From Thermomicrobiales bacterium (GTDB lineage: Bacteria; Chloroflexota; Chloroflexia; Thermomicrobiales; UBA6265), in NCBI GenBank assembly GCA_050696075.1, contig JBOGUF010000149.1, positions 10,507 through 74,506 of the forward strand: a DNA stretch of 64,000 nucleotides, given 5' to 3'. Shown piece by piece: positions 5,569-62,981 of the stretch (positions within the stretch are counted from its first letter, which is position 1; the number at the start of each line of letters is the position of its first letter). The notes beneath the pieces are model-generated. The model did not search any database, had not been told where the DNA came from, and saw nothing but the letters and a program-made list of their open reading frames with translations. A program made the translations under genes and the position numbers.

Positions 5569-5581
5569 ATCGCGAAAGCCT

Positions 5582-5719
5582 CTAGCTGCTAGCTGCTAGC
5601 AACGAGTCGATCATCGAGACACAGATGCTGACCGCTTTGCCTACCCTTACGCTTGAAGTGCTCATGTGGTTCCCCGGTTCCGTGTGGCTAGCAGCTCGTG
5701 GCTAGCAGCTAGCGGCTAA
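5582..5719. repeat. inverted tandem-heptamer arrays (TAGCTGC units) flanking an ~85-bp spacer
   Basis: Left arm ctagctgctagctgctagc (5582-5600). Right arm ggctagcagctcgtggctagcagctagcggctaa (5686-5719). At least 12 bp are perfectly complementary. The right arm contains the TAG stop of 5716..7236. Confidence 0.8.
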
Positions 5720-7236: not shown

Positions 7237-7523
7237 CGGCGCAAGCCCTTCCGACGTCAGGCGTCAATGGAAGCGACCCGGGCTGGCCGGTCGACACGGA
7301 AACGGACACACCAGATATGCGAAGGAGTGCGTGAGACCGGCAGCCCCTCCGCCACCGCTGCAAGCGCATTTCCTTTGCCTACATGTTTCATTGTACGCCA
7401 TCCGCACGAATAGCCGTCGGCCAACCGAACCCAATCCGGTCTCCACTGGTTCGATCATCGCGCACCGCTGGGGGTTTGCACATCGGCAGGAATACGTAAA
7501 GTAGCCGGCGCGACTGTGCGTAG

Positions 7524-9041: not shown

Positions 9042-11468
9042 TCAGATAATCCCCAACTGGAAGCCGAGGGCGACAGCGGCGGCGCGGTTGTCGATGCCGA
9101 GCTTGACGAAGATGTTGGTGACGTGGGTGGTGGCGGTGCGGTGGCTGATGAAGAGCGCCTCGCCGATCTCGCGGCTCGACTTGCCCTCAGCCAGCAGGCG
9201 CAGCACTTCCAACTCGCGGGGCGTGATACCGGCACTCTCGGCGGCGGTGCGGACGGCGGGCGGGGCGGCAGGGTGGCTGGCGACGATCGCCGCGGCGTCG
9301 GCCACCGCCTGTTCGAGGGAGAGGTCGCGGCCGGCGATCCAGGCGGCGCGGAACCCTTCTTCGCCGAGCTGCTGCTTGGCAAGGGCGGTCGCGCGGTCGT
9401 ATTGGGCGCTGATGTAGGGTTGGAGGCTGAGGCCGATTCCCTCGCGGAGGGCGTCGGCGGCGGCGAAGAGGCGGACGGCGACCTCCGCCTGCTGGTGGGC
9501 GGCGGCGATGGCGGCGAGCCCGTGCAGGATCTCGACGACGCCCCACGGGTCGCGGTCGCCTTGTTCCCAGCCAAGGGTAAGGCTCTCGCGAAAGAGTTCG
9601 GCGGCGCGCTCGTCGTCGCCCTGGGCACGGGCGTAGATGGCGAGGTTGAGGAGGGCGGTGCCGATGCCCCAGATGTTGCCGAGGCGGCGCCAGCGGTCGA
9701 GCGCCTCCTGGTAGTGCCCGCCGGCGGCTTTCCAATTGCCGCGCTCGAAGGTTTCGATGCCGAACCGGTTGAGGGCGAACGGCACCCACGCGTCGTCGCC
9801 GAGCTCGTGGAAGAGGGCGAGGGCCGATTCGGCGTGGGAAGCCGCGTCGTCATGGTTGCCACGGGCGCCCTCGGCGAAGCTGAGGGTGAAGAGGCCACGG
9901 GCCCGGATTCGCGTGTCGCCGGCGTCTTCGGCAATGGCGATGGCTTCGCGCGCGAGATGGGCGCCGCGTTCGCCGTCGCCTTGGACGCTGGCGAAGAAGG
10001 CGGAGGCGAGCATCGCCCGCGCGCGGACGATCGGCGACACCTCGTCGGCCGCCGCGAGGAGACGGTCGTACCACCCGCGCCCTTCGGTGAGGTAGCCGCG
10101 CGTTTGCCAGAACCACCAGAGTGCGCGGGCCAGGCGGAGCGCCGTTTCGGGATCGCGTTCGGCGCTCCAGTCGAGCGCGGCGCGGAAGTTGGCGTGCTCC
10201 CATTCGAGCCGGTCGAGCCAGGCGATCTGGTCCAGGCCCCAGACGGCCGGTTCGGCTTCCTCGGCCAAAGCCAGCGCCCAGGCGGCGTGCCGCGCCCACG
10301 CCTCATCCTCTTCACCGGCCGCCACGAGTTGCTCGATCCCGAACTCGCGGATCGTTTGGAGCATCCAGAATCGCGGTTCCCCGCCCCGCTCGTCCTGTCG
10401 CAGCAGGCTCTTGTCGACGAGGGAGGCGAGACCGTCGAGGACGGAGTCATGCGTCGTGAGTCGTGGGTTGTGCGTAGCTCGTTCGTTGTTCCTCACGTCT
10501 CGCGACTCACGGCTCACGACTCGTTCGGCGGCGTCGAGCGAGCAGCCGCGGGCGAAGACGGCGAGGCGGCGGAAGAGGGTTTGCTCCTCCTCGTCGAGCA
10601 AGTCGTAGCTCCAGGCGATGGCGTCGCGCATCGTTTGGAGGCGGACAGGGAGGTCGCGCGGGCCGCCGGTGAGGACGTGCAGGCGGTTGGTGAGGCGAGC
10701 GAGCAGGGCTTGCGGCGAGAGGACTTTGACGCGGGCGGCGGCGAGCTCGATGGCGAGCGGCAGCCCGTCGAGGCGGCGGCAGATCTCGGCGACCGCGGCG
10801 GCGTTCGCCTCGGTGAGGGCGAATTCGGGACGGACGGCGCGGGCACGTTGGAGGAAGAGGGCGACAGCGTGGTTCGCCTCGAGATCGCCAAGCTGTGCGA
10901 TGCGGCCCGCGGGCAGCGGCAGTGGCGCGACCGGGAATTCATGCTCCCCGGTGAGGTGGAGCGAGACCCGGCTGGTAACGAGCGCCTTGACGCCGGGACA
11001 GGCGGCGAGCAGATTGGTGATGACCGGCGCGGCGGACGCGACCTGCTCGAAGCTGTCGATCACCAACAGCAGCGACTGGTGATGGAGCAGACGGTGGAGG
11101 CGCTGATCGACGGGCTCGTCGCCCTCATTGCGCAAATCGAACGCGCGCGCGATAGCGGGGAGGACGAGGGCGGGGTCGCGGATGGAGGCGAGGGGCACGA
11201 ACCAGACACCGTCGGGGAAGGCGTCCCGGAGGTCGGTGGCGGCTTGCAGGGCGAGGCGGGACTTGCCGACGCCGCTCGGTCCGGTCAGGGTGACGAGAGG
11301 GACGTGCTCCTCGGCGAGCAAGGCGCGGACGCCGGCGATCTCCTCGTCGCGGCCGATCAGGGGAGTGCGAGGCGTCGGCAGGCGCGCTCCGCCGCCCCCA
11401 TCGGGGCGGCGGAGCGGGGTCAGCATCGTTGGGCGCGTCTCTGGAGCCGCGGGCGTCGGGGTGGACAA
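9042..11468 (-). CDS. LuxR-family transcriptional regulator with N-terminal AAA/NB-ARC-like ATPase and TPR region
   Basis: 808 aa. Walker A GPSGVGKSRL, TPR-like repeats, and a C-terminal LuxR HTH (TPRELEVLRLLAEGKSSREIGEALFISHRTATTHVTNIFVKLG). Confidence 0.9.
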   Translation of the reverse strand: MSTPTPAAPETRPTMLTPLRRPDGGGGARLPTPRTPLIGRDEEIAGVRALLAEEHVPLVTLTGPSGVGKSRLALQAATDLRDAFPDGVWFVPLASIRDPALVLPAIARAFDLRNEGDEPVDQRLHRLLHHQSLLLVIDSFEQVASAAPVITNLLAACPGVKALVTSRVSLHLTGEHEFPVAPLPLPAGRIAQLGDLEANHAVALFLQRARAVRPEFALTEANAAAVAEICRRLDGLPLAIELAAARVKVLSPQALLARLTNRLHVLTGGPRDLPVRLQTMRDAIAWSYDLLDEEEQTLFRRLAVFARGCSLDAAERVVSRESRDVRNNERATHNPRLTTHDSVLDGLASLVDKSLLRQDERGGEPRFWMLQTIREFGIEQLVAAGEEDEAWARHAAWALALAEEAEPAVWGLDQIAWLDRLEWEHANFRAALDWSAERDPETALRLARALWWFWQTRGYLTEGRGWYDRLLAAADEVSPIVRARAMLASAFFASVQGDGERGAHLAREAIAIAEDAGDTRIRARGLFTLSFAEGARGNHDDAASHAESALALFHELGDDAWVPFALNRFGIETFERGNWKAAGGHYQEALDRWRRLGNIWGIGTALLNLAIYARAQGDDERAAELFRESLTLGWEQGDRDPWGVVEILHGLAAIAAAHQQAEVAVRLFAAADALREGIGLSLQPYISAQYDRATALAKQQLGEEGFRAAWIAGRDLSLEQAVADAAAIVASHPAAPPAVRTAAESAGITPRELEVLRLLAEGKSSREIGEALFISHRTATTHVTNIFVKLGIDNRAAAVALGFQLGII
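10453..10523. repeat. inverted heptamer arrays (GTCGTGA / TCACGNC) embedded in frame in the LuxR CDS
   Basis: Left arm gtcgtgagtcgtgggttgtgcg. Spacer tagctcgttcgttgttc. Right arm ctcacgtctcgcgactcacggctcacgactcg. The element encodes RVVSRESRDVRNNERATHNPRLTTHD. Confidence 0.8.
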
Positions 11469-13290: not shown

Positions 13291-13327
13291 AGGCGTTAGG
13301 CGTTAGGCGTTAGGCGTTAGGGCGTGT
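13291..13327. repeat. tandem heptamer array (AGGCGTT x ~5)
   Basis: aggcgttaggcgttaggcgttaggcgttagggcgt read directly. The inverse array is at 14411-14438, and the same heptamer recurs at 62873. Confidence 0.85.
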
Positions 13328-13334
13328 CTGCACC

Positions 13335-13435
13335 CCGTCATGCTGAGGCATCGAAGCATCCCCGCGCGAAGCGCAGCGGCGACTGACGACGATTCGGCTT
13401 CGCCGGGGGATGCTTCCCGGTGGTCAGCATGACGG
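13335..13435. repeat. REP/MITE-like nested palindrome, copy 1
   Basis: ccgtcatgctgaggc...gaagcatccccgcgcg...cgccgggggatgctt...ggtcagcatgacgg. Same family as the copies at 35931 and 58672. Intergenic within the ABC operon. Confidence 0.8.
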
Positions 13436-14378: not shown

Positions 14379-14410
14379 GACCGCGTTCCTCCTGGCTGTA
14401 CCCCGGCACC

Positions 14411-14438
14411 TAACGCCTAACGCCTAACGCCTCCGGCC
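14411..14438. repeat. tandem heptamer array (TAACGCC x 3-4), inverse of the 13291 array
   Basis: taacgcctaacgcctaacgcctccggcc read directly, just downstream of the stop of 14444..15421. Confidence 0.85.
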
Positions 14439-19970: not shown

Positions 19971-20016
19971 GACGATAGGATGCCACGTTCTTGCCTGATG
20001 GCTGATAGCTGACGGC

Positions 20017-22425
20017 TCAGATCAGGCCGCGGCGGACGGCAACGGTGGCGGCCGCGGTGCGGTTGGCGGCGCCGAGCTTTTCCAGAATCGCGGCGACGTG
20101 CTTGGAGGCGGTGCGGGAGGAGATGAAGAGGGCGGCGGCGATCTCGTGGTCGGAGCGGCCCTCGCCGAGGAGGCGCAGCACGTCGCGCTCGCGCGGAGTG
20201 AGGCCGGCGCTGTCGGCCGGAGGCAGGGGTTCAGGGAGAGGCAACGCGAGAGCAGGCGCGGTTTCGGCGGCTGGTTCGAGGAGCGCCGTCGCGTGGGCGA
20301 TGGCCTGATCGAGGCGCCAGGCGCTGCCTATCGTCCAGGCAGCGGTGAAGGCTGTCTCGCCGAGGCGCGCGCAAGCGGCCTCCGCCGCGCGGGCGTACCG
20401 TTCTTGTTCGGGCAGTTCGAAGGCGTACCCGAGGGCCTGGGCGGCGGCCTCTGCCGCGCCGAGGAGCGCCGCGGCCTCTGCCGCCTGGTCGCGCTCCACG
20501 AGGAGGCAGGCGACGCGGGCCAAGGAGTCGACGATCCCTTCCTTCGACCCGACCCGTTGGTGCCAGGCGAGGCTCTCGCGGTACACCCGCGCGGCGCGGT
20601 CGTGGTCGCCAAGATCGCCGGTGACAAGTGCTAGGTCGCTGAGGGTGACGGCCACGCCCCATGGCTCATCGAGGTCGCGATAGCGACGCAGGGAGTCTTC
20701 GAGGAGGGCGACTGCCCGCGCCGGATCGCCCTGCCAGTAGGCGAGGATGCCGAGGTTGCAGCGGGCGAGGGCGACCCAGGTCGGCGCGTCCGACTGCTCG
20801 AAGAGGGCGAGCGCCTCCGCGAAGAGGGCAACCGCTCGATCGTAGTCGCCGCGACTCCGGGCCAGGGCGCCCAGCAAGTTGAGGATGGCGCCGGTGTCGC
20901 GGGTTTCATCAAGCTCGCGGTAGAGCGTCAGGGCTGATTCGGCGAAGGCGATGGCCCGCGCGGGATCACCGCGGGTGCGGGCGAGCGAGGCGGCGGCGTG
21001 GAGCGCCCGTGCCCGGATTGCGGGCGGCACTTCCGCCTGGCGCTCCACCGTGAGCGCCCGTTCAAGCCACTGCAACCCCTCGACGCGGTGGCTGCGGAGG
21101 GACCAGAAGGGCGCGAGGACGGTGGCCAGGCGGAGGAGAGACGTCGTGTCGCCGCGCTGCTCCAGCCAGGCCAGGGCCGCGCGCAAGTTGCCATACTCAC
21201 GCTCCAGGCGATCGAAGACTTCGGGATGGACCGGTTCCCGCATCGGGAAGGTCAGCGCGTGTTCGGCAAGATCCAGGCACCAGCGCGCGTGTTGACGCCG
21301 CGCCTCGTCGGCCTCGCCGCTCGCCGCCAGCCGCTCTAGGGCGTACTCCCGGATCGTCTCTAGGAGTCCGAAGCGCGACTCGTCTCCCTCTCCGCCGTCC
21401 TGTCGCACCAGGCTCTTGTCGACGAGGGAGGCGAGGAGGTCGAGGACGGAGGCGGAAGACGGAAGGCGGGAGGCGGGAGGCGGCCGAGGCGTCGTCATTA
21501 TCCGCCTTCCGCCTGCCGCCACCACTTCGGCGGCATCGAGGGAGAAGCCGGGGGTGAAGACGGCGAGGCGGCGGAAGAGGGCTTGCTCCTGCCCGTCGAG
21601 AAGGTCGTAGGACCAAGCGATGGCGGCGCGCAAGGTTTGGAGGCGGTCAGGGGCGTCGCGAGGGCCGCCGGTGAGGAGCGGCAAGCGTTGCTCGAGCCGG
21701 GAAAGGAGCGCGGGCAGGTTCAGGACTTTGACGCGGGCGGCAGCCAGCTCAATGGCGAGCGGCAGGTCGTCGAGGCGGGCGCAGATGGCATCGAGGAGCG
21801 GTTGATCGGCCGGCGTGACGGAAAATTGGGCGTCGACCGCGAGGGCGCGCTCGGCGAAGAGGCGGGCCGCGGCGGGTCGGGCCAGGGGCGGGACATGGAG
21901 GATACGCTCGCCGGAGAGACGGAGCGGTTCCCGGCTGGTGACCAGCGCGCGGAGGCGGGGGCAGACGGTGAGCAGCTCGGCCAAGATGGGCGCGGCGGCG
22001 ATGACGTGCTCGACATTGTCGATCAGGAGCAGCGCGTGGGTGTGACGGAGGGCGGCCTTCAGGCGGGCGATCAACGGCTGGTCGTGGGCCTCGCGCACGC
22101 CAAGGGCGCGGGCAATGGTCGCGGCGACAAGGTCCGGGTCGCGCAACGCGGCCAGCGGAATGAAAGCAACGCCGTCCTTGAAATCGGGTTCAAGTTCGGC
22201 CGCGACCTGAAGGGCGAGGCGCGTTTTGCCGACGCCACCGGGACCGGTCAGCGTCAGCAAACGGGTGTCGCCGCCCAGCAGCGTCGTCGCCATGGCGACT
22301 TCATCTGCCCGTCCGATGAGCGCGGTGAGCGGCGTCGGCAGGTTGGCGTCGGCGAACCGCTCCTCGCGGGGGAGGGTGGTGAGTTTGCTGGTTCGTGGCT
22401 TGGGTGAGAACGGCTCGGTCGACAT
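20017..22425 (-). CDS. LuxR-family transcriptional regulator with AAA ATPase and TPR region (paralog of 9042..11468)
   Basis: Walker A GPGGVGKTRL, TPR repeats and a C-terminal LuxR HTH. Start placed at the ATG at 22425 (MSTEPFSPKP). The upstream part of the track ORF translates a nonamer repeat (LANLANLAN). Confidence 0.9.
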   Translation of the reverse strand: MSTEPFSPKPRTSKLTTLPREERFADANLPTPLTALIGRADEVAMATTLLGGDTRLLTLTGPGGVGKTRLALQVAAELEPDFKDGVAFIPLAALRDPDLVAATIARALGVREAHDQPLIARLKAALRHTHALLLIDNVEHVIAAAPILAELLTVCPRLRALVTSREPLRLSGERILHVPPLARPAAARLFAERALAVDAQFSVTPADQPLLDAICARLDDLPLAIELAAARVKVLNLPALLSRLEQRLPLLTGGPRDAPDRLQTLRAAIAWSYDLLDGQEQALFRRLAVFTPGFSLDAAEVVAAGGRRIMTTPRPPPASRLPSSASVLDLLASLVDKSLVRQDGGEGDESRFGLLETIREYALERLAASGEADEARRQHARWCLDLAEHALTFPMREPVHPEVFDRLEREYGNLRAALAWLEQRGDTTSLLRLATVLAPFWSLRSHRVEGLQWLERALTVERQAEVPPAIRARALHAAASLARTRGDPARAIAFAESALTLYRELDETRDTGAILNLLGALARSRGDYDRAVALFAEALALFEQSDAPTWVALARCNLGILAYWQGDPARAVALLEDSLRRYRDLDEPWGVAVTLSDLALVTGDLGDHDRAARVYRESLAWHQRVGSKEGIVDSLARVACLLVERDQAAEAAALLGAAEAAAQALGYAFELPEQERYARAAEAACARLGETAFTAAWTIGSAWRLDQAIAHATALLEPAAETAPALALPLPEPLPPADSAGLTPRERDVLRLLGEGRSDHEIAAALFISSRTASKHVAAILEKLGAANRTAAATVAVRRGLI
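21448..21522. repeat. inverted heptamer arrays (GGAGGCG/GAAGGCG x5 and CCGCCTT x3) embedded in frame in the LuxR CDS
   Basis: Left arm ggaggcggaagacggaaggcgggaggcgggaggcg. Spacer gccgaggcgtcgtcattat. Right arm ccgccttccgcctgccgccac. The element encodes about GGRRIMTTPRPPPASRLPSSAS. Confidence 0.8.
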
Positions 22426-35930: not shown

Positions 35931-36024
35931 CCGTCGTCATGCTGAGGCAGCGAAGCATCCCCGCGCGCCGCGCCGACGGACCGGCTTCGCCGGGGGATGC
36001 TTCGGCTTCGCCTCAGCATGACGG
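35931..36024. repeat. REP/MITE-like nested palindrome, copy 2
   Basis: ccgtcgtcatgctgaggcagcgaagcatccccgcgcg...cgccgggggatgcttcggcttcgcctcagcatgacgg. Flanking ttagg..tttgca / gcaaac..ccctaa extensions reach about 35888-36047. Confidence 0.85.
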
Positions 36025-51574: not shown

Positions 51575-51604
51575 GGGTCAGGGGTCGGGAGTCAGGAGTC
51601 AGGG
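51575..51604. repeat. tandem heptamer array (GRGTCRG x4), left arm of the four-helix-bundle cassette
   Basis: gggtcaggggtcgggagtcaggagtcaggga. It contains the TGA stop (tca at 51599-51601) of the four-helix-bundle gene. Confidence 0.85.
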
Positions 51605-51973
51605 ACGACGTTCGAGCTTACGCTCAAGAGCGTTTCTTAGAGAAGCGAGTTGTTTGCCTAAGGGCACGACGATTTCCTTCACTTCCTCGAATTGTGCGGC
51701 CTTCAGATACCCAAATCGGACCGCTAATTCACATTGCGTTTCAACCTCCGCCAATGAACTACGAGCAATAGAGATGGCTTGCAAATACTCCTTCGTCGAT
51801 TCCCTGGTGTGTCCCTCCGCGACGTTGGATGGAATTGAAACGGCAGCTCGGCGCAGTTGATTTGCCAGACCATACAGTTCGTGACGAGGAAATGCTTCGG
51901 TTTGCTTGTGGATCATTTCCGCGAGGTCCATCCCTAGTTTCCACACCCGAAGATCCCGAAAGCTCTCAATCAC
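51599..51973 (-). CDS. four helix bundle protein (TIGR02436 / 23S rRNA intervening-sequence protein family)
   Basis: GTG start at 51973 after GAGAGGAG. FRDLRVWKLGMDLAEMIHKQTEAFPRHELYGLANQLRRAAVSIPSNVAEG is the family signature. The upstream part of the track ORF is a shadow. Confidence 0.85.
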   Translation of the reverse strand: MIESFRDLRVWKLGMDLAEMIHKQTEAFPRHELYGLANQLRRAAVSIPSNVAEGHTRESTKEYLQAISIARSSLAEVETQCELAVRFGYLKAAQFEEVKEIVVPLGKQLASLRNALERKLERRP

Positions 51974-51997
51974 CTTCGCTCCTCTCGTCGCCTTTGC

Positions 51998-52026
51998 CCC
52001 TGACTCCTGACTCCTGACCCCTGTCA
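51998..52026. repeat. tandem heptamer array (CCTGACY x4), right arm, inverse of 51575-51604
   Basis: cctgactcctgactcctgacccctgtca. Its reverse complement matches the left arm with 1-2 mismatches over ~24 bp. It contains the TGA stop of aspartate kinase (52024-52026). Confidence 0.85.
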
Positions 52027-53475: not shown

Positions 53476-53480
53476 GACGT

Positions 53481-53589
53481 AGCTCCTAGCCGCTAGCTGC
53501 TGGCCTCTAGCTTCTTGCGTGCCATCTCCACGTCGCTGTGGACACCCGCTAACTCAAGGCTAGGAGCTAACGGCTAATGGCTAGTTGCT
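53481..53589. repeat. imperfect inverted heptamer arrays (AGCNNCT-type) between attenuator and ask start
   Basis: Left arm agctcctagccgctagctgctggcctctagcttcttg. Right arm caaggctaggagctaacggctaatggctagttgct. 53480-53491 and 53558-53569 are 12 bp perfectly complementary and include the ask Shine-Dalgarno sequence. Confidence 0.75.
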
Positions 53590-53923: not shown

Positions 53924-55141
53924 ATGGTCGCTGTCTGCTCGCGCGCGCGAGATCGGTTGGCCGCGATACTGGGCGCCGTCGTCGTGCTCGCCGTGGTGGT
54001 CGCGTCGTCGGGCGTCGCCGTGGCGGGTGCGCAGACCGCGTCGCCGCCGGCTGGGGCGACGCCGGCCGGTGCGCCGGGCATCGTGAAGGAGCCGTACGGA
54101 ACCGTGGATGGCGAGGCAGTCGATCGGTACACCTTGACCAACGCCGCCGGCATGGAGGTCGTGATTTTGACCTACGGCGGCATCATGCAATCGATTACCG
54201 TGCCCGACCGCGACGGGACTTTGGCGAATGTCGCGCTCGGGTTCGACAACCTGGACGACTACGTCAACCGTAACCCGTACTTCGGCTGCATCACCGGCCG
54301 CTACGCGAACCGGATCGCCAATGGATCCTTTACCCTCGAGGGCGAGACGTACCAATTGGCGATCAACAACGACCCGAACACGCTCCATGGCGGCGAGAAG
54401 GGGTTTGACAAGTACGTTTGGGCGGCGGAAGAGGTGAGCGGCGCGGACGGCATGGGCATCCGGCTCAGCCGCGTCAGCCCGGACGGCGAGGAGGGCTACC
54501 CCGGCACGCTGACGGTCGAGGTGACGTACACCCTGACGGAGAACAACGAACTGCGGATCGACTATCGCGCCACGACCGACGCCGCGACGGTGGTCAACCT
54601 GACCAACCACTCGTACTTCAACCTGGCCGGGGAGGGCGCGGGGAGCATCTTCGACCACGAACTGCAGATCTTCGCGGCCAACTACACGCCGGTCGACGGG
54701 ACGTTAATTCCGACCGGGGCGATCGCCCCGGTCGCGGGGACGCCGTTCGACTTCACGCGGTCGACGGCGATCGGCGCCCGTATCCGCGACGGGAGCAACG
54801 AGCAGATCGTGATCGGACGGGGATACGACCATAACTTCGTGCTCGACCGCGCCAGCTCAGACGATGTCTCGCTGATCGCGGCGGCGCGGGTACATGACCC
54901 GGCGAGTGGGCGGGTGATGGAGGTTTCGACAACCGAGCCGGGCATCCAGTTCTACACCGGCAACTTCCTCGACGCGACGCTGGTCGGCCCGAACGGCGCG
55001 ATCTACCGCCAGGGCGACGGCTTCGCCCTTGAAACGCAGCACTACCCGGACTCCCCGAACCAACCGGATTTCCCCTCGACCGTGCTGCAGCCGGGCGAGG
55101 AGTACACCTCGACGACGGTGTACGCGTTTTCGACGGAGTAG
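53924..55141 (+). CDS. galM: aldose 1-epimerase (galactose mutarotase), secreted/anchored form
   Basis: ATG at 53924 after GGGAGGGAAGG, followed by a signal/TM segment. Motifs [38 protein letters not shown] and HSYFNL. Confidence 0.88.
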
Positions 55142-55153
55142 GGCGGCAAGAGC

Positions 55154-55188
55154 GGGAGGCGGAAGGCGGAAGGCGGAAGGCGGGAGAC
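55154..55188. repeat. tandem heptamer array (GGAAGGC x ~5), solitary
   Basis: gggaggcggaaggcggaaggcggaaggcgggagac starts 13 nt after the galM stop. It is followed by the hairpin gccgggttgaaaacccggc. Confidence 0.8.
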
Positions 55189-55273
55189 GGCCAGGCGGGG
55201 TCATTCCGGCGTTGCGTGACGCCGGGTTGAAAACCCGGCGATCAGATCAAGTACGCCGTGCTGGAGCGCAGCG

Positions 55274-56377
55274 GTGGCATCACGATCATCCCCAAGCACG
55301 TCGGCTAAGCAGGCGAAACAGACTCTGAACGGCAATGCGGTGGCGGATGCCCGCGCGGCAGGGCCGCGGTACGTTACCGACGCCAAGCCGGGCATCCGGC
55401 GGCAGCGGTCGGGACGCGGTTTCCGCTACCTGGATGCAAACGACAAGCCGGTGCGCGACCAGGCGACACTGGCGCGGATCAAGGCGCTGGCGATCCCGCC
55501 GGCCTGGACCGACGTCTGGATCAGCCCGTCGCCGAGCGGTCACATCCAGGCGACCGGGCGGGACAACGCCGGGCGCAAGCAGTACCGCTACCACCCCGCC
55601 TGGCGAGAGGTGCGGGACGAGGCGAAGTACGTTCGGCTCGTCGCGTTCGGCCGGGCGTTGCCGGCGATCCGGGCGCGCGTAAGCGAGGACATGGGGCGGC
55701 GCGACTTGTCGCGCGACCGGGTAGTCGCGGCGGTCGTGCGGCTGCTCGAGGAAACGCTGATTCGGGTCGGCAACGAGGAGTACGCGCAAGCGAACCGCTC
55801 GTTCGGGCTGACGACGCTGCGCGACCGGCACGTCGAGGTGAACGGCGCCACGCTGCACTTCCAATTCCGGGGCAAGGGCGGGAAGGAGCACGCGATCGAG
55901 TTGCACGACCCGCGGGTGGCCCGCGTCGTCCGGCGCTGCCGCGAGATCCCCGGCCAGGCGCTGTTTCAGTACCTCGACGAGGCGGGCGAGCGCCAGCTTG
56001 TCGACTCGGGCGACGTCAACGACTACCTGGGAGAGGTCGCGGGCGCGGAGTTCACGGCGAAGGACTTTCGGACCTGGGCGGGCACCCTCTCGGCTTGCCG
56101 CGCCTTCCTGGCGTGCGAACAGGCGACGTCGAAGACGGAGGCGGAACGGCTAGTCGTCGGCGTCGTCGACGAGGTGGCGGCGCACCTGGGCAACACCCGC
56201 GCCGTCTGCCGCCGCTGTTACATCCACCCGGCGGTGATCGACGCCTTTGTGGAGGGCAGCCTGGCCGCAGCCTTCGCGGCCGACGAGGAGGCGTCCGACG
56301 GGGAAGGACCGGAACTGACGGAGCGCGAGCGGGACCTGCTGAACTTCCTGGAAAAGGCGGCCAAGGCGAGCCGTTGA
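55274..56377 (+). CDS. DNA topoisomerase IB (bacterial poxvirus-like type)
   Basis: 367 aa. YVTDAKPGIRRQRSGRGFRYLD, LAIPPAWTDVWISP and GRKQYRYHP are typical of bacterial TopIB. C-terminal catalytic region with CRRCYIHP. Confidence 0.85.
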   Translation: MASRSSPSTSAKQAKQTLNGNAVADARAAGPRYVTDAKPGIRRQRSGRGFRYLDANDKPVRDQATLARIKALAIPPAWTDVWISPSPSGHIQATGRDNAGRKQYRYHPAWREVRDEAKYVRLVAFGRALPAIRARVSEDMGRRDLSRDRVVAAVVRLLEETLIRVGNEEYAQANRSFGLTTLRDRHVEVNGATLHFQFRGKGGKEHAIELHDPRVARVVRRCREIPGQALFQYLDEAGERQLVDSGDVNDYLGEVAGAEFTAKDFRTWAGTLSACRAFLACEQATSKTEAERLVVGVVDEVAAHLGNTRAVCRRCYIHPAVIDAFVEGSLAAAFAADEEASDGEGPELTERERDLLNFLEKAAKASR

Positions 56378-58671: not shown

Positions 58672-58817
58672 GTTAGGGTCTGTTTGAAAAGCTCCGTCAT
58701 GCTGAGGCGAAGCCGAAGCATCCCCGCGCGAAGCGCCGCGCTGGCGGTGAGGCACGCGGCGTCGCCGGGGGATGCCCTTCGGTGCCTCAGCATGACGGTG
58801 TGCAAACGCGCCCTAAT
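58672..58817. repeat. REP/MITE-like nested palindrome, copy 3 (full length with outer arms)
   Basis: gttagggtctgtttgaaaagctccgtcatgctgaggc ... gcctcagcatgacggtgtgcaaacgcgccctaatc. The outer arm overlaps the TAG stop of the S8 peptidase gene. Confidence 0.85.
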
Positions 58818-60573: not shown

Positions 60574-62895
60574 GTGGGAAGAGGGATGGAGAGCGGGACA
60601 GAACGCATTGGTTACGTAGGGCGGTCGATCCGGCGATTGGGGGACGAGCGGCTATTGCGTGGGGCGGGTCGTTTTGTGGACGACGTGCGGATTGCCGGCA
60701 CGCTCCACGTCGCGTTTGCGCGCGGTCCAGTGGCGCATGGGGTGATCCGGTGGATTGACGCGACGGCGGCGGCGCGTGTGCCCGGCGTCGTGGGTGTCTT
60801 CACCGGGGAGGAGGTCGCGGGGTGGGTCGAACCGGTGGGTGGCGGGGCGGATCTATTGCCGGGGCGTGAGTTGCGGCGGTATCCGCTCGCGGTCGCACGG
60901 GTGCGGTTCGTGGGGGATGCGGTCGCGGCAGTGGTGGCGGACGATCCGGCCGTTGCCCGCGACGCCGCGGACCGGATCGAAGTCGCCTACGACGAGTTGC
61001 CGGTGGTGGTCGACGCCGAGGCGGCGCTGGCCGCGGACGCGCCGCTGGTCTATCCGGGATGGGGGAGCAACCTTGCCTTCCGCTGGCAGGTCGAAGCGGG
61101 CGACGTCGAGGACGCCTTCGCCCGGGCAGAGCGGATTGTTTCGATCCGGGTAGTCAACCAGCGGGTCTACGCCGCTTTCCTCGAGCCGCGCGGGGTGCTG
61201 GCCAACCCGGAGCCGGGCGGTGATCTGACCGTTTGGGCCTCGACCCAAGGGCCGCACGGGTTGCGAACGGCGATTGCCGGCAGCCTGCGCGTTCCCGAGC
61301 ACCGGTTGCGGGTGATCGCGCCGGACGTGGGCGGCGCGTTCGGCAGCAAGGGCGGGACTTACCCTGAGTACCTGCTGATTCCCGCGCTGGCGATGCGGCT
61401 GGGGCGTCCGGTCAAGTGGATCGAGAGCCGGACGGAGAGCTTGCTGGCGACCAGCCACGGCCGGGACCAGGTACAGCGGTTGCGGGCGGCGGTGGCGGCG
61501 GACGGCGAGATTTTGGGGGTCGACATCGAGATCGTCGCCAACCTGGGGGCGTACAACGCGGCGATGACCGGGCGGATGACGGGGTTGATGTCGGCCGGGC
61601 CGTACCGATTCCGCAATCTGCGCACGACGGTCCTGGGGGCGATGACGAATGTGACGCCGCTCGGCTCCTACCGCGGCGCGGGCCGGCCGGAGGGGGCCTA
61701 CATGCTGGAGCGGCTGATCGAAGCGGTGGCGCGTGAGTTGGAGCTTGACTCGGCAGCGGTTCGTCGCCGCAACTTCATCCCGCCCGCGGCCTTCCCGTAC
61801 CAGTCGCCAACCGGCGCGATCTACGACAGCGGCGACTACGACACGACGTTGACCGAAGCCCTGAGCCGGCTGGACTACGACGCCTTCCGAATGGAGCTAG
61901 CGGAGGCGCGGCGTGCCGGGCGGTTGGTCGGCGTCGGCATCGGCGTCTATTGCGAGTATGCGGGGCCGGGTTGGGACACGGCGACGGTGCGGGTCAGCCC
62001 AAGTGGGGCGGTGACGGTGACGTCCGGAACCTCGCCGCACGGGCAGGGACAGGAGACGAGTTTGGCGCAGGTGGTCGCCGATCAGTTGGGGGTGACGCCG
62101 GATGACGTAGCGGTGCGGACCGGTGACACCGCGTTGACGCCGCAAGGGCTGGGCACCTTTGGCAGTCGCGGCACGTCGGTCGGCGGCTCGGCGATCCTGC
62201 TGGCGGCGCGGGAGGTCCACCAGAAGGCGCGACGGATTGCCGCGCACCTGCTGGAAGCGGCGGACGAGGACGTCGTCTTTGCCAATGGGCGCGTCGAGGT
62301 GCGGGGCGTGCCTAATCGGGGGATCGCGTTTGCCGACATCGCCCGCGCCGCGCACGCCTTCAACGGACCACCGGGCGGCGAGGAGCCGGGGCTGGAAGCG
62401 ACGCGGACCTTTCTGCCGTCGAACAGGACGACCCCGTATGGGGTCCACCTGGCGGTGGTCGAGGTCGACCGCGAAACGGGCGAGGTAGCGTTGCAACGCT
62501 ACCTGGCTGTCGACGACTGCGGCCCGCTGATCAACCCGCAATTGGTGGAGGGGCAGGTAGTGGGCGGGCTGGCGCAGGGGGTCGGCCAGGCGCTGTACGA
62601 GGCGATTGTCTTCGACGGTGCGGGGCAGCCGCTGACGGGCTCGTTCCTCGACTACGCCGTGCCGCGGGCGACGCAACTGCCGACCTTCGAGACCGCCCAC
62701 ACCGTGACGCCAAGCCCGTTCAACCCGCTCGGCGTCAAGGGGGTGGGCGAGGCCGGCACGACGGGGGCGCCGCCGGCGGTGGTCAACGCGGTGCTGGACG
62801 CGCTGACCCCGCTCGGCGTGCGGCATCTGGATATGCCGCTGACGCCGGAGCGGGTGTGGCGGGCGATGAACGAGGCGTTAGGCGTTAGGCGTTAG
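60574..62895 (+). CDS. xanthine dehydrogenase/aldehyde oxidase family molybdopterin-binding subunit (CoxL-like)
   Basis: 773 aa. An N-terminal a/b-hammerhead-like region (GRFVDD), GGAFGSK and GQGQET motifs. The start may be the ATG at 60586. The C-terminus (ALGVRR*) is encoded by the heptamer array. Confidence 0.9.
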   Translation: MGRGMESGTERIGYVGRSIRRLGDERLLRGAGRFVDDVRIAGTLHVAFARGPVAHGVIRWIDATAAARVPGVVGVFTGEEVAGWVEPVGGGADLLPGRELRRYPLAVARVRFVGDAVAAVVADDPAVARDAADRIEVAYDELPVVVDAEAALAADAPLVYPGWGSNLAFRWQVEAGDVEDAFARAERIVSIRVVNQRVYAAFLEPRGVLANPEPGGDLTVWASTQGPHGLRTAIAGSLRVPEHRLRVIAPDVGGAFGSKGGTYPEYLLIPALAMRLGRPVKWIESRTESLLATSHGRDQVQRLRAAVAADGEILGVDIEIVANLGAYNAAMTGRMTGLMSAGPYRFRNLRTTVLGAMTNVTPLGSYRGAGRPEGAYMLERLIEAVARELELDSAAVRRRNFIPPAAFPYQSPTGAIYDSGDYDTTLTEALSRLDYDAFRMELAEARRAGRLVGVGIGVYCEYAGPGWDTATVRVSPSGAVTVTSGTSPHGQGQETSLAQVVADQLGVTPDDVAVRTGDTALTPQGLGTFGSRGTSVGGSAILLAAREVHQKARRIAAHLLEAADEDVVFANGRVEVRGVPNRGIAFADIARAAHAFNGPPGGEEPGLEATRTFLPSNRTTPYGVHLAVVEVDRETGEVALQRYLAVDDCGPLINPQLVEGQVVGGLAQGVGQALYEAIVFDGAGQPLTGSFLDYAVPRATQLPTFETAHTVTPSPFNPLGVKGVGEAGTTGAPPAVVNAVLDALTPLGVRHLDMPLTPERVWRAMNEALGVRR

Positions 62896-62981
62896 GCGTT
62901 AGCACTTCCGTCGTGCCGGGCCAGATGCCTCGACGAACTCCGACGCTCGGCATGACGATGCTGACGCCTGACGCCTAACGG
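62873..62981. repeat. inverted heptamer arrays (AGGCGTT x4 / CTGACGC-CTAACGG) around a diverged REP-like core
   Basis: Left arm aggcgttaggcgttaggcgttaggcgtt. Core with cgtcgtgccggg...ctcggcatgacg. Right arm ctgacgcctgacgcctaacgg. It lies between two convergent genes. Confidence 0.8.

What the first reader, a model, noticed from the sequence alone, without database searches (positions are those of the whole stretch)
21448..21522. Paralogous LuxR regulator carries a different heptamer-array element at the same protein position
The 802-aa paralog has five GGAGGCG/GAAGGCG units, a spacer, and three CCGCCTT-type units. The segment encodes about GGRRIMTTPRPPPASRLPSSAS.

In both proteins the element lies between LDAAE(R/V)V and VLD(G/L)LASLVDKSL. 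The position is the same, but the heptamer sequence is unrelated (GGAAGGC-type here, TCACGAC-type in the other).

There are two readings. One is that a permissive linker was hit twice independently. The other is that the process generating these arrays is targeted by local structure rather than carrying a fixed sequence.

The GGAAGGC heptamer also occurs as a solitary intergenic array at 55154-55188.
Basis: seen in the sequence. Interest (0 to 1): 0.65.

Follow-up and report, generated by a model that had tools for sequence, protein, structure and literature searches.

The report
Heptamer-repeat hairpins colonise one regulator loop
A 75-base palindrome built from tandem 7-base repeats sits in frame inside a regulator gene of a Thermomicrobiales bacterium, and unrelated palindromes of the same design have repeatedly occupied exactly this protein loop in paralogs, orthologs and distant relatives, which makes the loop a genuine hotspot for a little-understood kind of bacterial repeat.

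Summary
Window 21448-21522 is five GGAGGCG-type heptamers, a 19-nt loop and three inverted CCGCCTT-type heptamers, in frame in an 802-aa NB-ARC/TPR/LuxR regulator. Paralog A (10443-10526) has an unrelated heptamer hairpin at the same position.

The site is a family-wide hotspot. I found at least 8 unrelated repeat units there (period 7, once period 8), in Thermomicrobiales, Anaerolineales and Acidobacteriota homologs. The syntenic ortholog (75% identity) carries a different unit. A third paralog in the same genome carries B's element, loop included (93.7% over 63 nt), but in the opposite orientation. A further copy is intergenic (55152).

The elements therefore post-date paralog divergence and form dispersed families. 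The loop is disordered in an AlphaFold model. In-frame stop codons are purged from the arrays.

Uninserted sites show no pre-existing nucleic-acid structure, so targeting by local structure is not supported. Tolerance alone, however, does not explain the concentration.

The closest known relatives are cyanobacterial STRR heptamer hairpins, Geobacter heptamer elements and Rickettsia palindromic elements. I file it as a new variant of a known kind.

In passing: PF05635 (Avd-like, 23S-IVS protein) genes are flanked by inverted heptamer arrays inside housekeeping operons in all four contexts examined.

The parts
20017..22425 (-). Gene B: 802-aa STAND (NB-ARC/AAA) + TPR + LuxR/GerE regulator that hosts the element
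   Evidence: ORF and translation; Pfam; identical protein annotated in Thermomicrobiales MAG GCA_975325355.1
21448..21482 (+). Arm 1 of the element: 5 heptamers, GGAGGCG GAAGACG GAAGGCG GGAGGCG GGAGGCG as read on the + strand (antisense to gene B)
21483..21501 (+). Loop GCCGAGGCGTCGTCATTAT. It is family-specific and shared with paralog C on L163.
21502..21522 (+). Arm 2: 3 inverted heptamers, CCGCCTT CCGCCTG CCGCCAC, which pair with arm 1
9042..11468 (-). Paralog A: 808-aa regulator with the same architecture, 44% identical to B
10443..10526 (+). Paralog A's element at the homologous loop: 5 GAGTCGT-type units, a 14-nt spacer and 5 inverted CTCACGA-type units. The unit whose TGA would fall in frame reads CGA instead.
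55152..55205 (+). Intergenic copy of B's family: about 5.6 GGCGGAA-type units plus a loop remnant GCCAGGCGGGGTCATT. It starts about 10 nt after the stop (55139-55141) of an aldose-1-epimerase gene. The right arm is degenerate.
62873..62981 (+). Intergenic hairpin of another family: (AGGCGTT)x4, a 58-nt core that is itself a hairpin, then inverted CTGACGC CTGACGC CTAACGG. RNA fold -73.6 kcal/mol, z = -8.4.
51577..52023 (-). Cargo-bearing version: inverted GGTCAGG/CCTGACT-type arrays flank a 124-aa PF05635 (23S rRNA IVS protein, Avd-like) gene at 51599-51973. It lies between the asd and aspartate kinase genes.
19996..20016 (-). Three-unit array (GCCGTCA GCTATCA GCCATCA) directly after gene B's stop codon. 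The ortholog has GCCGTTA GGCGTTA GGCGTTA at the same spot between conserved flanks.

Best explanation
The segment is a copy of a dispersed palindromic element of the STRR type. It has two inverted arrays of a 7-nt unit around a short, family-specific loop.

The element entered the DNA that encodes the loop between the helices at residues 296-303 and 327-336, ahead of the beta-hairpin I read as the wing of the winged-helix domain (domain assignment inferred), of a STAND-TPR-LuxR regulator. Entry was by insertion or by recombination. It did so after the paralogs had diverged.

Three conditions let it persist:
- The loop is disordered and tolerates 14-40 extra residues.
- The total length is a multiple of three.
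- The GGCGGAA unit has no stop codon in any frame in either orientation. In families that do carry a stop, the one in-frame copy is mutated away.

Other families of the same design have colonised the same loop independently in paralog A, in the syntenic ortholog and in homologs from other phyla. Once in place, the arrays change by slippage and concerted evolution.

The translated product is a low-complexity surface loop with no shown function. The hairpin is being eroded on the mRNA strand.

Shown: the anatomy, the pairing, family relationships including the flipped orientation, the hotspot, disorder of the loop, stop-codon purging and concerted change of an orthologous array.

Inferred: how the element moves, any spread between paralogs through the highly conserved flanks, and neutrality.
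For: Anatomy and pairing.

Dispersed family, loop included:
- B and paralog C (L163, same MAG, 46% aa identity) share 63 nt at 93.7% identity, E = 1e-20.
- The match is + strand to + strand, while gene B is on the - strand and gene C on the + strand, so the orientation relative to the gene is opposite.
- There is an intergenic copy at 55152.
- L164 in the sister MAG has six GGCGGAA units (five exact, first GGCGGAC).

Different families at the same site:
- A: GAGTCGT.
- Syntenic ortholog L002: AGTGCCC.
- L070, Acidobacteriota: GAAGAGGA, period 8.
- L081: GGAGGAC. L084: CGGACCA. L156: CTGAGGA.
- L102: GGGTTTC.

Element types are polyphyletic. B's nearest backbone relative, at 81% identity, carries another type.

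Hotspot statistics:
- 7 of 50 array rows, from 6 loci, lie in the hotspot; I estimate the hotspots at ~0.5% of the 2.0 Mb fetched (about 163 sites x ~60 nt; my estimate).
- 7 of the 19 strongest hairpins inside 177 matched gene segments (tblastn HSPs) map to B residues 302-321.
- Hairpins elsewhere in these genes are not arrays.
- The hotspot is the most length-variable internal segment (sd 9.9 aa), apart from two domain-scale indel sites that I attribute to extra TPR repeats and N-terminal fusions (inference from ~40-aa gap sizes and Pfam lists).

Tolerance: pLDDT is below 50 only at residues 1-26, 306-323 and 722-736, and the insert lies between helices 296-303 and 327-336.

Reading-frame filter: in A and in L156, the single unit whose TGA would be in frame is the mutated one.

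mRNA-strand erosion: the antisense strand folds at least 3 kcal/mol better in 6 of 10 hotspot elements, and the reverse never occurs.

Turnover in place: an orthologous intergenic array changed its unit in concert.
Against: - I found no target-site duplication, no empty or filled allele pair and no transposase, so mobility itself is not demonstrated.
- The opposite orientation in B and C could also arise if recombination between the arms inverted the loop.
- The elements replace almost the whole canonical loop, with near-constant junctions right after AEAV and right before VLD. Simple random insertion does not predict that.
- The pre-HTH linker is equally disordered yet shows no arrays and little length variation (sd 3.8 aa), so tolerance alone is insufficient.
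- In several non-Thermomicrobiales loci, the hotspot array is the only array in 6-22 kb of flank.
Confidence: 0.55

Rival explanations
1. The element was generated in place at a predisposed site. A local process builds array palindromes from whatever sequence lies between the two helices: slippage of 7-nt units plus fold-back or template-switch copying that keeps the arms complementary. The process is attracted to this site by a property of the DNA or RNA, or by the conserved flanks.
For: - Orthologous arrays change their unit in concert between conserved flanks.
- An array is present or absent at an orthologous spacer, with a 1.5-unit seed in the window.
- All array hairpins inside these genes lie at one site, with near-constant junctions.
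- At least 8 units are involved, one of period 8.
- B-type units (GAGGCGG) resemble the native codons GCC GAG GCG GTG.
- The loops often contain small palindromes (CTGCAG, CGATCG, GCCGGC), as expected for inverted duplication.
Against: - Uninserted sites are not structured: median MFE percentile 0.63 for sense and 0.72 for antisense, relative to other windows of the same gene.
- Flank complementarity equals the reverse and complement controls.
- B, C, L164 and the intergenic 55152 copy belong to one arm (unit) family; the B-C match (63 nt, 93.7%) also spans the asymmetric 19-nt loop, whereas for L164 and 55152 BLAST matched only the arms and the loop resemblance is by eye. That points to spread of a pre-formed sequence.
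- A 7-nt step is frame-breaking, so stepwise growth inside an ORF would pass through lethal intermediates.
Confidence: 0.25
2. The feature is selected for a function. The candidates are: a regulatory nucleic-acid hairpin inside the gene; a slippage-driven on/off (phase-variation) switch, because a change of one heptamer shifts the frame; or a beneficial flexible loop that tunes the regulator.
For: - The element recurs at one site in many lineages.
- About 55% of the 120 closest homologs carry an insert.
- L164 has six GGCGGAA units (five exact, 41 nt perfectly periodic).
- Intergenic members sit at operon spacers where stem-loops plausibly act on mRNA. The STRR literature makes the same suggestion (PMC2670836).
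Against: - The hairpin is weaker on the mRNA strand than on the antisense strand.
- The peptide sequences are unrelated to each other.
- 101 of 115 homologs in the broad sample lack any insert.
- No frameshifted alleles occur at the hotspot in 164 loci.
- Most arrays are short and imperfect, hence poor slippage substrates.
Confidence: 0.12
3. The segments are ordinary diverged linker sequence that only looks repetitive because of GC-rich codon usage.
For: The genome is 62-72% GC. The flanking codons (GCC, GAG, GCG, CTC, TCC) are themselves quasi-repetitive.
Against: - Period-7 arrays number 7, against 0 in shuffles and 0-1 for other periods. Across 1.36 Mb the count is 36 for period 7 against at most 7 for any other period.
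- Arm complementarity is significant.
- The element is 93.7% identical between paralogs that share only 46% aa identity, and it is flipped.
- The ortholog carries an unrelated insert.
Confidence: 0.02

Closest known systems
STRR (short tandemly repeated repetitive) heptamer sequences of heterocyst-forming cyanobacteria
   Same: - Tandem 7-bp units, with several unit families per genome.
- Mostly located in operon spacers.
- Inverted arrays form hairpins (PMC2670836).
- They also occur inside a structured gene, the RNase P RNA gene (Vioque 1997, title cited in PMC2858038). My recollection, not checked here, is that they extend helix P12.
- By my recollection of Elhai et al. 2008 (not retrievable), small dispersed repeats are embedded in such arrays. 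The window shows the same arrangement.
   Different: - The host is Chloroflexota (Thermomicrobiales), with about 68% GC, not a cyanobacterium.
- The units are different.
- Here the hairpins are translated in frame inside a protein gene and recur at a single protein loop.
Geobacter metallireducens multicopy elements with four tandem heptanucleotide repeats
   Same: A dispersed family of 49 copies built on four heptamer repeats, found within genes as well as between them (PMC2700814).
   Different: - It is a single unit family with no reported inverted partner arm.
- There is no reported hotspot at a paralogous protein position.
Rickettsia palindromic elements (RPE) and other in-frame MITEs
   Same: Palindromic selfish repeats inserted in frame into protein genes at positions compatible with the fold (PMC10969869).
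   Different: - RPEs are about 150 bp with a fixed consensus and a conserved peptide.
- They are not built of tandem heptamers.
- They hit many unrelated genes rather than one loop of one family.
23S rRNA intervening sequences (IVS) that carry a PF05635 ORF
   Same: A long stem of inverted repeats encloses an optional gene for a four-helix-bundle, Avd-like protein, placed where extra sequence is tolerated (PMC10053308). The window element 51577-52023 has exactly this layout.
   Different: - The window element lies in an mRNA operon spacer (aspartate kinase to asd), not in rRNA.
- Its stems are made of heptamer arrays.
- The elements in the regulator loop carry no ORF.
REP/REPIN elements
   Same: Short dispersed palindromes located in operon spacers.
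   Different: - No conserved GTAG or CGTC tag is evident.
- No RAYT transposase is seen in the window.
- The arms are tandem arrays.

Membership tests
STRR-type heptamer repeats | Tandem repeats of a 7-nt unit, over-represented relative to other periods | tested here: met
   7 arrays against 0 in shuffles, and 0-1 at other periods. Across 1.36 Mb, 36 at period 7 against at most 7 at any other period.
STRR-type heptamer repeats | Several unit families dispersed in one genome, mainly intergenic, able to form hairpins through inverted arrays | tested here: met
   About 10 unit types in 64 kb. Seven inverted pairs and four solitary arrays.
STRR-type heptamer repeats | Host is a heterocyst-forming cyanobacterium (as the class was defined) | tested here: not met
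   The source is a Thermomicrobiales MAG, GCA_975325355.1.
MITE / transposable palindromic element | Multiple dispersed copies sharing internal sequence as well as terminal inverted repeats | tested here: met
   BLAST: B-C match of 63 nt at 93.7% spans both arms and the loop; 55152 and L164 match B only over the arrays (32-38 nt); their loop resemblance is by eye.
MITE / transposable palindromic element | Target-site duplication and empty or filled sites | tested here: inconclusive
   No flanking direct repeat is seen at B, C, A or 55152. No empty-site allele was available.
MITE / transposable palindromic element | A cognate transposase in the genome | not testable with these tools
   Only 64 kb plus two short contigs of this MAG were available.
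Rickettsia palindromic elements | In-frame insertion into ORFs at structurally tolerated positions | tested here: met
   The ORFs are intact. The insert has pLDDT below 50 and lies between two helices.
Rickettsia palindromic elements | Sequence consensus of an RPE family, with a conserved encoded peptide | tested here: not met
   The units and peptides are unrelated between elements. No Rfam match in the window.
23S rRNA IVS | Stem of inverted repeats enclosing a PF05635 ORF | tested here: met
   Applies to 51577-52023 only: PF05635 E = 8e-35; arm duplex -66 kcal/mol.
23S rRNA IVS | Located inside a 23S rRNA helix | tested here: not met
   The flanking genes are asd and aspartate kinase. No rRNA match in the window.
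Phase-variable contingency locus | Long perfect repeat tract whose copy number varies and switches the reading frame | tested here: not met
   B has 5 imperfect units. No frameshifted alleles occur at the hotspot in 164 loci. Population data were not available.
LAL / MalT-like STAND LuxR regulators (host gene) | N-terminal P-loop NOD, followed by a helical/winged-helix region, TPR sensor repeats and a C-terminal LuxR HTH | tested here: met
   Pfam finds NB-ARC, AAA_22, TPR_12 and GerE. AF2 mean pLDDT 84.9; its helix/strand order fits such a layout, domain by domain (my reading).

The most novel reading that the evidence does not exclude
Heptamer-array stems may be the ends of an IVS-like cassette system. 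In its cargo-bearing form, the cassette carries a PF05635 gene for an Avd-like four-helix-bundle protein. The cargo-less hairpins, including those in the regulator loop, would then be derivatives of it, much as ORF-less IVSs or MITEs derive from full elements.

The Avd-like protein, perhaps acting with a reverse transcriptase or another nucleic-acid enzyme, would take part in making or moving the arrays. The elements would reach this one loop through the exceptionally conserved flanking DNA of a multi-paralog family, in a form of homing between paralogs.
Probability: 0.2. Interest if true: 0.85.

Novelty: new variant of a known kind. Interest (0 to 1): 0.6.

Why it matters
The origin and function of heptamer tandem repeats in bacteria (STRR and related arrays) have stayed unexplained since their description in cyanobacteria around 1990 (my recollection of the literature, not retrieved here).

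This locus provides a natural experiment. It is a single, well-defined protein loop that has been colonised many times, by many unit families, in several phyla, in both orientations. The reading frame acts as a built-in filter that records which arrays survive.

That makes several questions tractable with genome data alone:
- insertion versus growth in place;
- strand bias;
- rates of concerted evolution;
- spread between paralogs.

The locus also shows that selfish or structural DNA repeats can create new disordered loops in signalling ATPases.

The side observation, if general, gives the large uncharacterised PF05635 family a genomic context and links it to 23S rRNA intervening sequences. 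In every context examined, the Avd-like PF05635 gene sits between inverted heptamer arrays inside a housekeeping operon.

Tried and rejected
1. **Pre-existing stem at the uninserted site.** The longest complementary k-mer between the AAEAV and LDGLASLVD codons matched the reverse and complement controls in 101 canonical homologs. The MFE of the canonical site was no lower than other windows of the same gene. Rejected.

2. **Peptide search for the element in other protein families.** I searched the 5.8-billion-protein set with five stop-free frames of the B/C element. Nothing scored at E <= 10, possibly because of low-complexity filtering (my guess). This is uninformative, not negative evidence.

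3. **Phase variation.** No adjacent matched segments in different frames at the hotspot.

4. **Recent gene conversion between B and C.** The flanks are 80-87% identical, no more than between B and A (83-88%). The high flank identity is a property of the family, not a conversion tract.

5. **Known RNA family.** No Rfam match at gathering threshold anywhere in the window.

6. **DNA for four further homologs.** P0003, P0029, P0104 and P0109 were not on record, so their element types rest on peptide motifs only.

7. **Papers not held.** Elhai et al. 2008 and Vioque 1997 could not be retrieved. Details attributed to them are from memory.

8. **First regex for the linker.** It failed and was replaced by MAFFT column extraction.
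Full report
**1. The observation**

The window comes from a Thermomicrobiales metagenome-assembled genome (GCA_975325355.1, contig CDICZW010000127.1).

On the + strand, 21448-21482 reads GGAGGCG GAAGACG GAAGGCG GGAGGCG GGAGGCG. Then 21483-21501 is GCCGAGGCGTCGTCATTAT, and 21502-21522 is CCGCCTT CCGCCTG CCGCCAC.

The segment lies in frame in ORF 20017-22425(-). From its ATG the ORF encodes 802 aa and reads ...SLDAAEVVAAGGRRIMTTPRPPPASRLPSSASVLDLLASLVDKSL.... The protein has NB-ARC/AAA_22, TPR_12 and GerE (LuxR HTH) domains.

Paralog A, 9042-11468(-), is 44% identical to B. Between the same motifs, at 10443-10526, it carries five GAGTCGT-type units, a 14-nt spacer and five inverted CTCACGA-type units.

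Period 7 is specifically over-represented. The window has 7 clean arrays, against 0.0 in shuffles and 0-1 for periods 4-12. Across 1.36 Mb of related loci, the count is 36 for period 7 against at most 7 for any other period.

In each element the second array is the reverse complement of the first, so each element is a hairpin. RNA fold z-scores are -2.65 for B, -2.49 for A and -8.4 for an intergenic example at 62873.

**2. The site is a family-wide hotspot**

I aligned the 120 closest homologs, mostly Thermomicrobiales. The segment between AAEAV and VLDxLxSLVDKSL has the canonical short form (xxxGDLxxD) in 54 of the 121 aligned sequences (120 homologs plus paralog A). The other 67 carry low-complexity inserts.

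In a taxonomically broader DNA sample, 101 of 115 homologs are canonical and 14 carry inserts.

Wherever DNA was available, the inserts are hairpins, and most are array palindromes with unrelated units:
- AGTGCCC in the syntenic ortholog L002, which is 75% aa identical and has the same downstream Thump-like gene.
- GAAGAGGA, period 8, in an Acidobacteriota MAG (L070).
- GGAGGAC in an Anaerolineales MAG (L081).
- CGGACCA (L084) and CTGAGGA (L156).
- GGGTTTC (L102).

Hotspot statistics:
- 7 of 50 period-7/8 array rows, from 6 loci, fall in the hotspot; I estimate the hotspots at ~0.5% of the 2.0 Mb fetched (about 163 sites x ~60 nt; my estimate).
- 7 of the 19 strongest hairpins inside 177 matched gene segments (tblastn HSPs) map to B residues 302-321.
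- Hairpins elsewhere in these genes are plain inverted repeats, not arrays.
- One solitary array lies in a second loop, near B residue 185 (L104).

**3. The elements are younger than the genes and belong to dispersed families**

A third paralog in the same MAG (P0037, on L163, 46% aa identity to B) carries B's element at the same site. The match is 63 nt at 93.7% identity (E = 1e-20) and includes the asymmetric loop. It runs + strand to + strand, while gene B is on the - strand and gene C on the + strand. The element is therefore flipped relative to the gene.

Because the arms are mutually inverted, both orientations encode GGRR...RLP(P/S)SAS. Only the loop peptide differs: IMTTPRP in B against EAAEAASLP in C.

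The same family occurs intergenically at 55152, about 10 nt downstream of the stop (55139-55141) of an aldose-epimerase gene. It also occurs with six GGCGGAA units (five exact) in another paralog of the sister MAG (L164).

Element types are polyphyletic on the protein backbone. B's nearest relative, at 81% backbone identity, carries the AGTGCCC type. The three recognisable types each occur in mutually distant paralogs.

The segments do not align as ordinary diverged sequence.

**4. Why the elements survive here**

An AlphaFold2 model (mean pLDDT 84.9) has confidence below 50 in only three segments: residues 1-26, 306-323 (the insert) and 722-736. The insert lies between helices 296-303 and 327-336, just before the beta-hairpin I take to be the wing of a winged-helix domain (my reading of the model).

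The reading frame acts as a filter. GGCGGAA has no stop codon in any frame in either orientation. The most common window family, AGGCGTT, contains TAG in one orientation and TAA in the other, so it is only ever found between genes.

In A and in L156 the unit contains TGA. The single unit whose TGA would fall in frame reads CGA in A and CCA in L156, while the out-of-frame copies keep TGA. This shows that the arrays are a DNA-level feature that translation has had to accommodate.

In 6 of 10 hotspot elements, the antisense strand folds at least 3 kcal/mol better than the mRNA strand, and the reverse never occurs. That argues against a selected mRNA hairpin. It fits erosion of a burdensome structure on the mRNA strand.

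**5. Testing 'targeted by local structure'**

Canonical sites have no flank complementarity beyond the controls. Their folding energy is no lower than that of other windows of the same gene: the median percentile is 0.63 for sense and 0.72 for antisense. I found no support for a pre-existing nucleic-acid structure.

Tolerance alone is nevertheless insufficient, for three reasons:
- The equally disordered pre-HTH linker has no arrays and varies little in length. Its sd is 3.8 aa, against 9.9 aa at the hotspot.
- In several non-Thermomicrobiales loci, the hotspot array is the only array in the locus.
- The elements replace nearly the whole canonical loop, with near-constant junctions.

One candidate extra factor is that the hotspot lies between the most conserved DNA of the family. 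Paralogs share 80-92% nt identity there, against a gene mean of about 60%. That could allow an element to spread from paralog to paralog by recombination. This is inference: the B-C flanks show no excess identity over the B-A flanks.

**6. How the arrays evolve**

Directly after gene B's stop codon, the window has GCCGTCA GCTATCA GCCATCA. The ortholog has GCCGTTA GGCGTTA GGCGTTA at the same place. The position, copy number and flanks are conserved, but the unit has changed in concert.

At the SBP-permease spacer, the ortholog has a roughly 6-unit array where the window has only about 1.5 units.

Slippage with homogenisation therefore operates in place. This keeps the generation-in-place rival alive.

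**7. The wider system in the window**

The window contains seven inverted array pairs:
- 5577/5698
- 10443/10492
- 21448/21502
- 51577/51994
- 53486/53571
- 62873/62961
- 13291/14407

It also contains four solitary arrays, at 7522, 39643, 55152 and 57129.

The cores between the arms vary. They include:
- loops of 14-19 nt;
- a MITE-like palindrome family, whose full copy at 58694-58798 folds at -87.5 kcal/mol, with related copies next to AGGCGTT arrays;
- a PF05635 gene.

**8. Comparison with known systems**

- Heptamer hairpins in operon spacers match cyanobacterial STRR sequences (PMC2670836). STRRs also occur inside the RNase P RNA gene (title cited).
- Geobacter metallireducens has 49 copies of a four-heptamer element, found both within and between genes (PMC2700814).
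- In-frame palindromic insertions are known from Rickettsia RPEs (PMC10969869).
- PF05635 is Avd-like and was first found in 23S rRNA intervening sequences (PMC10053308).

What is new here:
- the host phylum;
- translation of array palindromes;
- the repeated, multi-family, multi-phylum occupation of a single loop of one regulator family.

I rate it a new variant of a known kind, with interest 0.6.

Noticed in passing
window 51577-52023; L165-L174 about 1400-1925; L175 1445-1820; L176 1443-1937: PF05635 (23S rRNA IVS protein, four-helix-bundle, Avd-like) genes are flanked by inverted heptamer arrays. They sit co-oriented inside housekeeping operon spacers. The unit differs in three of the four contexts (the window and its ortholog L175 share GGTCAGG/CCTGAC-type arms). 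The contexts are aspartate kinase | asd (window, and ortholog L175), ftsW | murG (the 10 places shown, of 24 contigs read; GGGGCCA/CCCTGGC, duplex -115 kcal/mol) and E1alpha | E1beta (GGTGCTG/CACCCAG). Most homologs sit on contigs of 0.5-2 kb, as expected for repeats that break assemblies.
   Followed up: partly
window 58694-58798; also 13322-13400, 35935-35967, 62903-62960; L163 1193-1223: A MITE-like or REP-like palindromic family, CCGTCATGCTGAGGC...GCCTCAGCATGACGG. The full copy is 105 nt and folds at -87.5 kcal/mol. Copies lie directly next to, or nested between, AGGCGTT heptamer arrays. This recalls small dispersed repeats embedded in heptamer arrays in Nostoc.
   Followed up: partly
window 19996-20016 versus L002 4263-4289: An orthologous three-unit array directly after the regulator's stop codon. 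The position, copy number and flanks are the same, but the unit changed in concert: GCCATCA-type in the window against GGCGTTA-type in L002.
   Followed up: yes
window 13291-13321 and 14407-14432: (AGGCGTT)x4.4 and its inverse (CCTAACG)x3.7 lie 1.1 kb apart in two spacers of an ABC-transporter operon. They bracket one permease cistron. The predicted duplex is about -70 kcal/mol, so a long-range mRNA stem is possible.
   Followed up: no
window 10457-10477 (paralog A); L156 2634-2661: Stop-codon purging inside translated arrays. Of four TGA-containing units, only the one whose TGA would be in frame is mutated, to CGA in A and to CCA in L156.
   Followed up: yes
L104 2653-2692; L072 2869-2900 and 8172-8197: Heptamer arrays in frame elsewhere. 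One is a solitary (CGACCGA)n array in a second loop of a STAND-LuxR homolog, near B residue 185. Others lie in a linker before a hydrophobic stretch in an 827-aa open frame, and near the N-terminus of a 475-aa ORF that by eye resembles threonine synthase (not searched), in a Chloroflexia MAG.
   Followed up: partly
window 53480-53585 and 5577-5719: CTAGCTG/GCTAGCA-type array palindromes fill whole intergenic regions. One lies between the start of the aspartate kinase gene and the aldose-epimerase gene. The other lies between two minus-strand genes.
   Followed up: no
window 55274-56377: A bacterial type IB topoisomerase gene (Topoisom_I + Top1B_N_bact) lies about 85 nt downstream of the intergenic GGCGGAA array. 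No link was tested.
   Followed up: no
window 1-64000: GC skew is positive along the whole window. Four of five intergenic or genic hairpins fold better on the + strand whatever the gene orientation. This could reflect a replication-strand or mutational bias.
   Followed up: no
window 11385-11416 (paralog A, N-terminal region): A perfect 14-bp palindrome, CGCTCCGCCGCCCC GATG GGGGCGGCGGAGCG, lies inside the coding sequence of paralog A's disordered N-terminus.
   Followed up: no
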